From a virus (taxonomy: Duplodnaviria > Heunggongvirae > Uroviricota > Caudoviricetes), in the IMG/VR virus record IMGVR_UViG_2529293042_000013: a DNA stretch of 22,815 bases; one strand, 5' to 3'. Position numbers: made by a program. Of this stretch, positions 3,001 to 6,000 are shown piece by piece (the stretch's first letter is position 1; the number at the start of each line of letters is the position of its first letter).

Positions 3001-6000
3001 GTTGCAAATGATCGATGCATAGCGATTCAAACAGGTGCTGGGGCAGGCCTTTTTCCATGTCGTCTGCCAGTTCTGCCTCTTTCTCTTCACGGGCGATCTG
3101 CTGGTAGTGACGCGCCCAGCTCTGAGCCTCAAGACGATCCTGAATGTAATAAGCGTTCATGGCTGAACTCCTGAAAATGGCTGTGAAAATATCGCCCGCG
3201 AAATGCCAGGCTGATTAGGAAAACAGGAAATGGGGTTAGTGAATGCTTTTGCTTGATCTCAGTTTCAGCATTAATATCCATTTTTTATAAGCGTCGACAG
3301 CTTCACGAAACATCTTTTCATCGCCAATAAAAGTGGCGATAGTGAATTTAGTCTGGATAGCCATAAGTGTTTGATCCATTCTTTGGGACTCCTGGCTGAT
3401 TAGGTATGTCGATAAGGCGTTTCCATCCGTCACGTAATTTACGGGTGATTCGTTCAAGTAAAGATTCGGAAGGGCAGCCAGCAACAGGCCACCCTGCAAT
3501 GGCATATTGCATGGTGTGCTCCTTATTTATACATAACGAAAAACGCCTCGAGTGAAGCGTTATTGGTATGCGGTAAAGCCGCACTCAGGCGGCCTTGATA
3601 GTCATATCATCTGAATCAAATATTCCTGATGTATCGATATCGGTAATTCTTATTCCTTCGCTACCATCCATTGAAGGCCATCCTTCCTGACCATTTCCAT
3701 CATTCCAGTCGAACTCACACACAACACCATATGCATTTAAGTCGCTTGAAATTGCTATAAGCAGAGCATGTTGCGCCAGCATGATTAATACAGCATTTAA
3801 TACAGAGCCGTGTTTATTGAGTCGGTATTCAGAGTCTGACCAGAAATTATTAATCTGGTGAAGTTTTTCCTCTGTCATTACGTCATGGTCGATTTCAATT
3901 TCTATTGATGCTTTCCAGTCGTAATCAATGATGTATTTTTTGATGTTTGACATCTGTTCATATCCTCACAGATAAAAAATCGCCCTCACATTGGAGGGCA
4001 AAGAAGATTTCCAATAATCAGAACAAGTCGGCTCCTGTTTAGTTACGAGCGACATTGCTCCGTGTATTCACTCGTTGGAATGAATACACAGTGCTTATTC
4101 GTACTAATAAAATACCCAATTTTCTGTTTCTTGGTTGTGTCCAAAGTTATATTCAATATCTGGTGTTGATGTATCAATATTCTTCATACCATCAACAAGA
4201 GTTGATACAACAGCCAAATCTTGTTTGATTCTCATTAAATGGTATTTCTTCCGGCGCAATAAACTTTCAATGGCAAGTTTCTTCGTTGGGAATGCAAAAG
4301 ATCTTTCTGCATTTTTTGCTACTTTCTTAATTGCATATCTATTTCTCCTTTGTTTCCATTCCTGTAACCACTGATTTGGTGCTGGTTTAAAATTAACAAT
4401 CCAATGCGCAGGAACCAACCATGCATAATGCTCTGTCTGATGAAAAGCTATATATTGAAGTGCGAATATTTTTATCCCATCTTCTTCAACTGTCGCCTGG
4501 AATCTCCAGAAAACAGGCATTCCATCATGTTCAGTTTCTGATTCAGGAAAAGGTACGCTCCATGATTTTGTCATATCTCACCTCAAATAAGTGGTTTGCT
4601 GCCTAATTTCATTTTCTGGCGACCAACACAAGTCACCTCGCCGTCAGTTGTTTTGATTTCCGGTAGCCTGCCGCGTAAATGGCTACGTTTGGAAGACATA
4701 CACCAGTTTCTGGTTGCTTATGTCCAAACTCATTCGCGTACACAATGGCCGCTCGCTCCAGATTGCGTCTGTATTCTTTCTGTTGCCAGATCACGTCCTG
4801 TGCCATGAACTTAATTGGCTTAGCGTCTTCTATGCGCTCAGGCGTTTCGTGAGTACCTTTAGCCTGAATCTGCGCTCTGCTTAGAGTAGGGCGGTGTAAT
4901 ACTTCTGAACTTATTGCTTCTTCGCGGGCCAGTACGCCGTTAGCTAATGCCTTTGCCTTTAAACGCTCACGACGACGAGAACGTGAATTGCCTTTGAACT
5001 GAGTTCTGCGTGTCATATAGACCTCCTGATGAACTTTGGTGGTGTGGTAGGTGGGAGACCCATTTCGACCTGTTTCGGCCTACTTCAATTCGGCAATAGT
5101 CCCGCAGGCCTCGCCGCTTTACGTGCGACATATTCCCGTCCATGAACCCTTCACCACACCCCAAAGTTCACTTTGGTTATTGCGCTTTGTCAGCGCCGTA
5201 GATTCATATTCGAATCGTTGTATATTCACCGCCCTGGTGAGTAATGCGTCCTGCTGACGACGATAATAATGAACCAATAGTTCGACATTATCAAGAACTA
5301 TTGGTACGAATTTTGGTGATTTATTAACTCTACGAAGTATGATTCTGATATATAAGGAAATTTATTTTTGAAAATGTGGCTGATGAAGGTTATGCGGCAG
5401 GGATCATAACTGCATGGTTTAGCGAGTTACATCAATAAATACAATTGGTTATGTTTTTTAGGTGGGCGAACGTGAGGCAAAGAAAACCCGGCGCTGAGGC
5501 CGGGCTAGATTTTAAAGTATTTATCTTTTAGAGATGTAGATGTAAAACTTTTCGCCTTTGAAAATTTTTTGTCATCAGAAGGGCTTATGAACTCATCTTT
5601 TTTGTAGGGAACCGCTAATGCTGCATCACGTCTGCGAGGCAGCTTGCTTACTTCCTCGCGCTTTTTCATGATCAGTTATCCTTTAATAACCTATACAGTT
5701 TTGTAGGGGTACATCCTGAGGATATTGTTAAGTTCGTAGCACGCCTTTTCCGCCCATCATCGTATAAACGAAAACCAGTAGTAGACGAATTTTCTGCGTC
5801 AAAAACTATAGACAGTATAGCGTCCCCAGACTTTTTTTGCCATTCGCATGTGCCGTTAGTTGGTTTCGTCATCTGTAGACGCCAGTCAAGAACGCCATCA
5901 CTTATAGCTGAGAGATCGTTTAGTACATCTAGTACGGATTGATATCTTTCATTTGGATCTACATGAATGCATTTGTTCACTATTGTTATTAATTTTTTAT

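What the first reader, a model, noticed from the sequence alone, without database searches (positions are those of the whole stretch)
4104..4574. Unrecognised 156-aa gene in an AT-rich island at the ral/sieB position
This ORF replaces lambda ral/sieB between N and ea10, is visibly AT-richer than flanking conserved genes, and is followed by its own terminator hairpin. Phage genes at this locus are typically anti-restriction or superinfection-exclusion factors, so this is a candidate accessory function; I recognise no motif in it.
Basis: inference. Interest (0 to 1): 0.5.

Follow-up and report, generated by a model that had tools for sequence, protein, structure and literature searches.

The report
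Uncharacterised early gene beside PreS sRNA
The ORF is a real, well-conserved early gene of Shiga-toxin phages (933W L0079, the same gene as HK97 gp45) whose function nobody has tested, and the "terminator" after it is not its own but the known lambda tL2a terminator and PreS small RNA.

Summary
The 156-aa ORF at 4104-4574 (minus strand) is real. It is 100% identical to phage 933W L0079, phi24B vb_24B_11c and HK97 gp45, which every source annotates as hypothetical. It has a strong Shine-Dalgarno site and dN/dS of 0.07-0.17. It is present in 598 of 5426 complete E. coli genomes.

It occupies the lambda sieB/orf28/ral slot downstream of N and is AT-rich (GC 0.357, GC3 0.268). The hairpin after it is not its own. 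The ~130 bp after the stop codon match the lambda ral-ea10 spacer almost exactly. That spacer is terminator tL2a and the Hfq-dependent sRNA PreS.

Relatives sit co-directionally in early operons of temperate and probably virulent phages, with no conserved partner gene. My best guess, an inference only, is an early lytic-cycle factor that binds nucleic acid or another polyanion. Superinfection exclusion is unlikely. Interest is moderate.

The parts
4104..4574 (-). Protein-coding gene, 156 aa, 18.6 kDa, pI 9.07. Same gene as 933W L0079, phi24B vb_24B_11c and HK97 gp45. Member of phrog_1636.
   Evidence: ORF. Nucleotide sequence 100% identical to 933W and to many Stx phages; protein 100% identical. 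Annotation. phrog_1636 at E 2.7e-112 over the full length. dN/dS 0.07-0.17. AlphaFold model pLDDT 96.2.
4578..4584 (-). Shine-Dalgarno sequence GAGGTGA, 4 nt upstream of the ATG
   Evidence: Read directly from the sequence.
4575..4632 (-). 58-nt N-ORF spacer. No intrinsic terminator and no promoter-like site was predicted, so the gene is read from pL on the same transcript as N.
   Evidence: Scan of 3400-5600. The only strong minus-strand promoter-like site is at 5294..5266, upstream of the position of nutL transferred from the 933W annotation.
4061..4090 (-). 13-bp hairpin with a 4-nt loop, starting 13 nt after the stop codon. It marks the point where homology with lambda begins.
   Evidence: Fold with z = -4.1 for 3950-4110. 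Alignment with lambda and HK97 shows identity starting at GCACTGTG.
3972..4059 (-). Homologue of the lambda sRNA LPR1/PreS (~88 nt). It ends in terminator tL2a: stem 4001..3980, then a T-run at 3979..3972.
   Evidence: Near-identity to the lambda ral-ea10 spacer, with 1 difference in the terminator loop. Terminator scan. Fold. Identity of that lambda spacer with PreS/tL2a taken from bioRxiv 10.1101/2024.10.31.621285. The 5' end is inferred from the published ~88-nt size and is not mapped here.
4633..5016 (-). Antiterminator N (H-19B/933W type), the upstream boundary of the cargo slot. Its last ~64 nt (4635-4698) are shared by different N alleles.
   Evidence: Pfam N_peptide. 933W annotation. 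64-nt partial matches and shared C-terminal ...AAGYRKSKQLTAR in other N alleles.
3585..3953 (-). ea10 (DUF2528), the next gene after tL2a/PreS
   Evidence: Pfam DUF2528 2e-47. 933W annotation 'ssb/Ea10'.

Best explanation
SHOWN
- 4104-4574 (minus strand) is a real gene under purifying selection. It is the same gene as 933W L0079 and HK97 gp45.
- It sits in a cargo slot of the lambdoid pL operon. The slot is bounded upstream by the conserved 3' end of N and downstream by the conserved hairpin plus PreS/tL2a segment.
- It is co-directional with pL and shows no promoter or terminator of its own.
- It encodes a soluble 18.6-kDa protein of a phage-restricted family (phrog_1636 and distant relatives).
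- The predicted fold is confident: a long three-stranded beta-sheet (residues 19-55), two short helices, a fourth strand (83-86), a 33-residue helix (98-130) and an ordered acidic C-terminal tail. It resembles no solved structure.

INFERRED (low confidence)
- The protein is made early in lytic growth or prophage induction, together with N.
- It acts as a non-enzymatic binder. It uses the basic surface that is conserved across the family (positions 24, 83, 84, 87, 92, 108, 109; net charge +5 to +14 over residues 74-120) to bind nucleic acid or another polyanion.
- Its most likely role is to protect or assist phage DNA replication and recombination intermediates against host nucleases or defences.
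- It is dispensable and exchangeable with ral-type cargo.
For: - Identity and annotation.
- Coding and selection.
- Slot architecture and mosaicism.
- No promoter-like site or own terminator.
- Soluble and basic: pI 9.07, with 16 K/R in residues 74-120 and no TM segment.
- The basic core is conserved across 67 members at ~20-25% identity. Median pI is 9.0, 61 of 67 are above 8, and median net charge of the core is +10. The near-invariant residues (G33, T47, K87, A101) look structural rather than catalytic.
- Model pLDDT 96.2, pTM 0.84.
- Only uncharacterised phage proteins match in BFVD, from phages of Proteobacteria and Bacteroidetes. That breadth fits a target that is universal, such as nucleic acid.
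- Genomic contexts are always co-directional in early operons next to recombination or DNA-metabolism genes: RecT/YqaJ/RdgC/SSB, RecE, ParB-like plus RusA, DNA methyltransferases, Lar.
- Absent from conjugative plasmids.
Against: - There is no direct evidence of nucleic-acid binding.
- A conserved basic face could equally bind an acidic protein.
- Proximity to DNA methyltransferases (7 of ~13 contexts) has no background control and may only reflect what early-left operons usually contain.
- No expression or phenotype data for this gene were found in the literature searched.
- Electrostatics were judged from sequence, not from the model surface.
Confidence: 0.35

Rival explanations
1. A protein-binding counter-defence or host-takeover factor. 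On this view the protein is functionally analogous to Ral in the same slot. It binds and inhibits or re-programmes a specific host protein, such as a restriction enzyme, another defence system or a housekeeping factor, rather than nucleic acid.
For: - Same slot as lambda ral.
- Early, accessory, stand-alone and fast-diverging small protein.
- In one metagenomic prophage it lies two genes from a Lar restriction-alleviation gene, and it is often near DNA methyltransferases.
- AT-rich, horizontally mobile cassette.
Against: - No similarity to Ral, Lar, Ocr, ArdA or any solved anti-defence protein.
- Basic, so not a DNA mimic.
- The family spans phages of very different hosts, which is unusual for an inhibitor of one sporadically distributed defence system.
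- Absent from conjugative plasmids, which share many anti-restriction genes with phages.
Confidence: 0.3
2. An accessory factor for the phage's own DNA transactions or regulation, with no link to host defence. Examples are a recombination or replication helper, or a transcription or RNA regulator of the early operon.
For: - It is always embedded in early operons with recombination and replication genes.
- The basic core is conserved.
- The family is present in phages without an annotated integrase nearby as well as in temperate ones.
Against: - Lambda lacks it altogether, and it is swapped for unrelated genes in the same slot, so it is not a core function.
- No conserved partner gene.
- No HTH or other regulator fold.
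Confidence: 0.2
3. A superinfection-exclusion or abortive-infection protein expressed from the prophage, like SieB, which lies at the same position in lambda.
For: - Position equivalent to sieB.
- Carried by many E. coli prophages: 598 of 5426 genomes.
Against: - No transmembrane segment: maximum 19-residue Kyte-Doolittle mean is 0.56.
- Same strand as pL, with no promoter-like site found, whereas sieB in the lambda record lies on the strand opposite to pL.
- No PADLOC hit for any of 67 members.
- Close and distant relatives occur in phages whose fetched regions show no integrase (Bas81, NX263, LIET2), and BFVD structural matches come from diverse phages.
Confidence: 0.07
4. Not a functional gene: a chance ORF, or merely a spacer whose transcript serves as the precursor of PreS.
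For: PreS is processed from the 3' end of this transcript region.
Against: - Strong SD site.
- 156-163-aa homologues across genera.
- dN/dS 0.07-0.17.
- All 84 close copies examined are intact.
- The fold is confidently predicted.
Confidence: 0.01

Closest known systems
Phage 933W L0079 / phi24B vb_24B_11c / HK97 gp45 (PHROG phrog_1636)
   Same: The protein is identical or 99% identical. The position is the same, immediately downstream of N and upstream of the tL2a-type terminator.
   Different: Nothing differs; it is the same gene. All records call it hypothetical, and no paper in the searched library mentions it.
Lambda Ral (restriction alleviation), resident of the same slot in lambda
   Same: An early pL-operon accessory gene located between N and the tL2a/PreS segment. 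The sequence downstream of both genes is nearly identical.
   Different: No sequence similarity. The ral CDS in the lambda record is 201 nt against 156 aa here. No evidence here of any effect on restriction-modification.
Lambda SieB (superinfection exclusion), also in the same slot
   Same: Genomic position between N and ral/ea10.
   Different: sieB lies on the strand opposite to pL in the lambda record. This ORF is co-directional with pL, soluble, and shows no promoter-like site or similarity to SieB.
Lambda sRNA LPR1/PreS and terminator tL2a (bioRxiv 10.1101/2024.10.31.621285)
   Same: The 3' flank of the ORF (about 3972-4059) is the same sequence, with 1 difference in the terminator loop. 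It has the same GC-rich stem plus poly-U.
   Different: In lambda it follows ral; here it follows L0079, starting ~45 nt after the stop codon. Expression and processing in this phage were not tested. There was no Rfam 15 match (E up to 1) in that segment.
Morons as described for HK97/HK022 (definition recalled from memory: extra genes with their own promoter and terminator and deviant composition)
   Same: Deviant AT-rich composition and sporadic distribution among related phages.
   Different: No own promoter-like site was found, and the terminator is a shared operon element. It is an in-operon cassette rather than an autonomous moron.

Membership tests
phrog_1636 (933W L0079 / HK97 gp45 family) | Full-length sequence match to the family profile | tested here: met
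   E 2.7e-112 over 1-156 of 156. All 67 aligned relatives also hit phrog_1636.
phrog_1636 (933W L0079 / HK97 gp45 family) | Identity to the annotated 933W and HK97 genes at the same locus | tested here: met
   100% to 933W. HK97 gp45 has the same length and position, with dN 0.003.
Lambda Ral restriction-alleviation family | Sequence similarity to Ral | tested here: not met
   No Ral or Lar family appears in the Pfam, PHROG or NCBIfam scans.
Lambda Ral restriction-alleviation family | Alleviates type I restriction or enhances modification | not testable with these tools
   Needs plating assays of unmodified phage on EcoKI/EcoBI hosts.
SieB superinfection exclusion | Membrane protein | tested here: not met
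   Maximum 19-residue Kyte-Doolittle mean is 0.56, GRAVY is -0.59, and the N-terminus is acidic.
SieB superinfection exclusion | Expressed in the lysogen from its own promoter | tested here: not met
   The ORF is on the same strand as pL. No sigma-70-like site was found on the minus strand between 4575 and 5265. This is a consensus scan only; expression was not measured.
DNA-mimic anti-restriction proteins (Ocr, ArdA) | Highly acidic surface that mimics DNA | tested here: not met
   pI 9.07. The core (residues 74-120) carries 16 K/R. Family median pI is 9.0.
Known anti-phage defence proteins (PADLOC-DB) | Significant match to a defence-system profile | tested here: not met
   Best E is 0.018 for the query and 0.0012 for a single member out of 67. 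Nothing recurs across members.
Moron (autonomous promoter-gene-terminator unit) | Own promoter and own terminator | tested here: not met
   No promoter-like site. The terminator is the shared tL2a/PreS element.
Moron (autonomous promoter-gene-terminator unit) | Base composition different from neighbours | tested here: met
   GC 0.357 and GC3 0.268, against N 0.492/0.438 and bet 0.523/0.573.
PreS/LPR1 sRNA with tL2a (for the 3' flank) | Sequence identity to the lambda ral-ea10 spacer, and a GC-rich stem followed by poly-U | tested here: met
   Alignment A3. Terminator scan. Fold.
PreS/LPR1 sRNA with tL2a (for the 3' flank) | Hfq-bound ~88/68-nt RNA that activates dnaN translation | not testable with these tools
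   Shown for lambda only, in bioRxiv 10.1101/2024.10.31.621285.

The most novel reading that the evidence does not exclude
L0079/gp45 is the best-placed experimental handle on a widespread, phage-restricted protein family. HK97 and 933W are both genetically tractable. The family has 87 clusters at 50% identity detectable by sequence, plus structural relatives in phages of Alpha-, Beta- and Gammaproteobacteria and Bacteroidetes. Its alpha/beta fold has no solved relative. On this reading it acts by a new mechanism of counter-defence or host takeover, for example shielding phage nucleic acid through its conserved basic face.
Probability: 0.3. Interest if true: 0.6.

Novelty: new member of a known kind. 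Interest (0 to 1): 0.35.

Why it matters
- **Prevalence.** The gene is carried by 933W, phi24B, Min27, H-19B and many other Stx1a/Stx2a-converting phage records, and by 11% of complete E. coli genomes. It is probably made together with N at the very start of induction.
- **If it is a counter-defence or DNA-protecting factor.** It would bear on how Shiga-toxin phages spread to new hosts. It would also give a function to a family found in many unrelated phages.
- **The correction about the terminator.** It shows that the N-to-tL2a interval is an exchangeable cargo slot flanked by conserved junctions. It also shows that this Stx phage carries the PreS sRNA, which in lambda boosts the host DnaN clamp for phage replication.
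- **Otherwise.** The finding is an ordinary 'hypothetical early gene'.

Tried and rejected
- **Profile libraries.** Pfam, NCBIfam, PADLOC and PHROGs were run on the protein and on all 67 aligned relatives, including E up to 10 for Pfam. Only function-unknown PHROGs matched.
- **PDB by sequence.** Single-sequence and profile searches found nothing better than E 0.13.
- **First AlphaFold run.** With 20 close homologues it gave an unusable model, pLDDT 59.5. The second run with 67 diverse relatives gave 96.2.
- **Domain fusions.** The two long hits, P0066 and P0080, are repetitive false positives.
- **Conserved partner gene.** An all-against-all comparison of up- and downstream neighbours in 12 contexts found none.
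- **LIET2 gp064 as a paralogue.** Rejected: hhalign probability 0.1%.
- **Plasmid leading regions.** The gene occurs only on non-mobilizable, prophage-like records.
- **Literature.** Searches for L0079, vb_24B_11c, phrog_1636 and HK97 gp45 found nothing relevant. The phi24B lysogen-expression paper and the accessory-gene screen paper (PMC12373910, including its supplements) do not mention it.
- **Viral-contig scan with the wide alignment.** It failed because there was no conserved stretch to search with.
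Full report
**1. What is there**

The window is an Stx2a-converting phage of E. coli O157:H7. It is 99.9% identical to Stx2a_F451 and F403 and 99.8% to Min27 over 94% of its length. The part examined is 933W-like.

An ATG-initiated ORF of 156 codons runs from 4574 to 4104 on the minus strand. It is preceded by GAGGTGA 4 nt upstream of the ATG.

The 801 bases around it are 100% identical to phage 933W, Min27, phi24B and other Stx phages. In 933W the gene is annotated L0079 'hypothetical protein', lying between N and ssb/ea10. In phi24B it is vb_24B_11c. In HK97 it is gp45, again right after N.

The exact protein has been seen on at least 1000 contigs. Sources name it only 'hypothetical' or 'prophage protein'. 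598 of 5426 complete E. coli genomes carry the gene, with up to 4 copies each.

**2. It is a real gene**

- Full-length homologues of 156-163 aa at 56-85% identity occur in prophages of Pectobacterium, Brenneria, Rosenbergiella, Cronobacter and Symbiopectobacterium, and in metagenomes.
- Codon-level comparison gives dN/dS of 0.07-0.17 where dS can be estimated. Elsewhere synonymous sites are saturated (pS 0.67-0.93) while pN stays at 0.2-0.29.
- All 84 close copies fetched are intact, with one amino-acid change among them despite up to 9 nucleotide differences. Those loci were chosen by protein identity, so this figure is biased.

**3. Composition and position**

| Feature | GC | GC3 |
|---|---|---|
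| This ORF | 0.357 | 0.268 |
| N | 0.492 | 0.438 |
| bet | 0.523 | 0.573 |
| ea10 | 0.385 | 0.366 |

The lambda record shows N, then sieB (on the opposite strand), orf28 and ral, then ea10 and cIII. The ORF therefore does sit where lambda has sieB/orf28/ral.

**4. The 'own terminator' is tL2a/PreS**

Downstream of the stop codon there are two structures:
- a 13-bp hairpin at 4090..4061;
- a canonical terminator, with stem 4001..3980 followed by TTTTTTAT.

I aligned this spacer with the lambda ral-ea10 spacer and the HK97 gp45-cIII spacer. Identity is essentially complete from the first base of the 13-bp hairpin through the terminator. There is one difference from lambda, in the terminator loop. 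Upstream of that point lambda (after ral) and this phage (after L0079) are unrelated.

A 2024 preprint identifies this lambda spacer as an sRNA (bioRxiv 10.1101/2024.10.31.621285). According to that preprint:
- The sRNA is LPR1, renamed PreS. It is ~88 nt, processed to ~68 nt, and depends on Hfq.
- Its 3' end is terminator tL2a of the early-left operon.
- It activates dnaN translation, represses alaS and promotes lambda DNA replication.
- It is conserved in many lambdoid phages.

In the window the 88 nt ending at the T-run are 3972-4059. They fold into a 5' stem, an open middle region and the terminator. Rfam 15 gave no match at E up to 1 in this spacer; the only match in 3000-6000 is the cIII thermoregulator at 3467-3525.

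**5. A cargo slot with conserved junctions**

Among 88 fetched loci that carry the gene:
- 72 have the hairpin/PreS segment 3-5 nt after the ORF.
- 6 have an extra ~530-bp insert between them, encoding a 92-98-aa and a 52-70-aa ORF.
- The H-19B-type N lies directly upstream (59-69 nt) in 34.
- Others have different N alleles that share only the last ~64 nt of N (C-terminus ...AAGYRKSKQLTAR).
- Others again have extra small genes between N and the ORF: a 62-aa zinc-ribbon-like protein, a 74-aa protein, 121/149-aa membrane-like proteins, and an opposite-strand 164-aa ORF.
- ea10 follows PreS in some and is absent in others, such as HK97.

This is the classic lambdoid pattern of cassette exchange at conserved linkers.

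No promoter-like site was found for the ORF, and there is no intrinsic terminator between N and the ORF. It should therefore be transcribed from pL on the same RNA as N, upstream of the first strong intrinsic terminator. Rho-dependent termination could not be assessed.

**6. The protein**

- 18.6 kDa, pI 9.07, GRAVY -0.59. There is no hydrophobic segment able to span a membrane.
- Residues 74-120 carry 16 K/R in 47 residues, whereas both ends are acidic.
- Pfam, NCBIfam, PADLOC and PDB sequence searches found nothing. The only family matches are function-unknown PHROGs, led by phrog_1636 at 2.7e-112.
- An exhaustive HMM search of 1.84 billion representatives found 87 clusters at E of 1e-3 or better. 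Most are stand-alone proteins of 130-165 aa at ~20-25% identity. The two long hits are repetitive false positives.
- None of 67 aligned members matches any Pfam, NCBIfam or PADLOC family in a recurrent way.
- Only G33, T47, K87 and A101 are near-invariant across the 67. E46, R/K24 and K109 are next. This does not look like a catalytic constellation.
- The charge pattern is conserved. Median pI is 9.0 and 61 of 67 members are above 8. Net charge of the aligned core is +5 to +14 (median +10), and the C-terminal tail has a median charge of -4.

**7. Structure**

With 20 close homologues AlphaFold failed, giving pLDDT 59.5. With the 67-member alignment it gave pLDDT 96.2 and pTM 0.84. The elements are strands 19-30, 33-46 and 50-55, helices 56-61 and 66-74, strand 83-86, a long helix 98-130 and an ordered tail.

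| Search | Result |
|---|---|
| Foldseek against the PDB | All hits have E above 1 |
| Foldseek against BFVD | 13 hits at E of 1e-3 or better, all uncharacterised phage proteins |
| AFDB50 | Library unavailable |

The BFVD hits come from phages of Erwinia, Achromobacter, Delftia, Rhizobium, Sinorhizobium, Tenacibaculum and Cellulophaga. The fold therefore has no solved relative and is so far phage-specific.

**8. Genomic contexts of relatives**

| Phage or locus | Context |
|---|---|
| Brenneria alni prophage | Last gene before xis-int |
| Salmonella phage NX263 and E. coli BASEL phage Bas81 (~64% identical) | First gene of a short operon with a ParB-like protein and a RusA-like resolvase |
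| Pantoea myovirus LIET2 | Two genes after a DNA methyltransferase |
| Pseudomonas phage Medea1 | Downstream of a C5-methyltransferase, near int |
| A Vibrio phage | Beside RecE and a replication initiator |
| Seven metagenomic or genomic prophages | Mostly in the run of small genes between RecT/YqaJ/RdgC/SSB and integrase |

In those seven, DNA methyltransferases lie within 5 kb in four, and a Lar restriction-alleviation gene lies two genes away in one. In every case but one the gene is co-directional with the early operon.

No neighbour is conserved. The gene is not found on conjugative plasmids, only on non-mobilizable prophage-like records.

**9. Interpretation**

Shown: this is a conserved, soluble, basic, phage-restricted early protein encoded by an exchangeable in-operon cassette.

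Inferred, point by point:
- It is repressed in the lysogen and made early after induction. It also occurs in phages with no integrase annotated in the fetched region. So it serves lytic growth rather than prophage-borne exclusion.
- The family spans phages of very different bacteria and keeps a basic face rather than catalytic residues. So the ligand is more likely a universal polyanion (DNA or RNA) than one sporadic defence protein.
- It is dispensable and swaps with ral-type cargo. So a protective or counter-defence role, or a replication/recombination-assisting role, is most plausible.

I put about 0.35 on the nucleic-acid-binding version, 0.3 on a protein-targeting inhibitor, 0.2 on a defence-unrelated DNA-transaction or regulatory helper, 0.07 on exclusion, and about 0.01 on 'not a gene'. 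None of these was tested. No publication in the searched library mentions the gene.

**10. Verdict**

The interpretation 'accessory function' is reasonable but unproven, and its exclusion variant is unlikely.

The gene itself has been annotated as hypothetical in the 933W and HK97 GenBank records for years. What is new here:
- its placement in a wide family with a confident fold that has no solved relative;
- the conserved basic core;
- the recognition that its 3' flank is PreS/tL2a.

Interest is moderate (0.35). It is a sensible candidate for anti-defence and DNA-binding assays in two tractable phages, but nothing about it is yet surprising.

Noticed in passing
window 3972-4059 (-): Homologue of the lambda Hfq-dependent sRNA LPR1/PreS, ending in terminator tL2a. 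Nearly identical to lambda, with 1 difference in the loop. Rfam 15 gave no match (E up to 1) there. This Stx2a phage therefore probably makes PreS from the 3' end of the L0079 transcript.
   Followed up: yes
window 4061-4090 (-): A 13-bp hairpin with a 4-nt loop lies exactly where homology with lambda begins, just upstream of PreS. It could be a processing site or barrier that defines the PreS 5' end, or a recombination junction. It is not followed by a T-run.
   Followed up: partly
window 4635-4698 (-): The last ~64 nt of N (C-terminus ...AAGYRKSKQLTAR) are shared by otherwise different N alleles in other prophages. This forms the upstream conserved junction of the cargo slot.
   Followed up: partly
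window 6184, 6413, 6576 (stk); 7541; 8059 (cI); 669, 692: Seven single-base indels relative to 933W, all in or next to A/T runs. They split stk into three ORFs (5672-6118, 6130-6333, 6461-6715) and cI into two (7639-8052, 8052-8345). The pattern looks like long-read homopolymer assembly errors rather than biology. The target ORF region is unaffected.
   Followed up: partly
window 3467-3525 (-): Rfam Lambda_thermo (cIII thermoregulator) match: 88.5 bits, E 1.4e-21.
   Followed up: no
loci L034, L061, L015, L039 (downstream of the ORF); L017, L048, L080, L086, L042 (upstream): Other prophages carry additional small cargo genes in the same N-to-PreS slot. These are a 92-98-aa plus 52-70-aa pair after the ORF, a 62-aa zinc-ribbon-like protein, a 74-aa protein, 121/149-aa membrane-like proteins, and a 148-aa ORF with an opposite-strand 164-aa ORF between N and the ORF. 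None was characterised here.
   Followed up: partly
L095 3441-3917 (Bas81_0050); L089 5001-5477 (Salmonella phage NX263): About 64%-identical homologues head a short operon with a ParB-like protein and a RusA-like resolvase, transcribed divergently from the neighbouring genes on the opposite strand. These phages show no integrase in the fetched region, so the gene moves between very different phage types.
   Followed up: partly
window 8763-9047 and beyond: Identity to 933W decays in the cII region and the alignment ends at 9047, so the replication module differs from 933W. The whole window matches Stx2a phages F451, F403 and Min27 better and includes stx2A.
   Followed up: no
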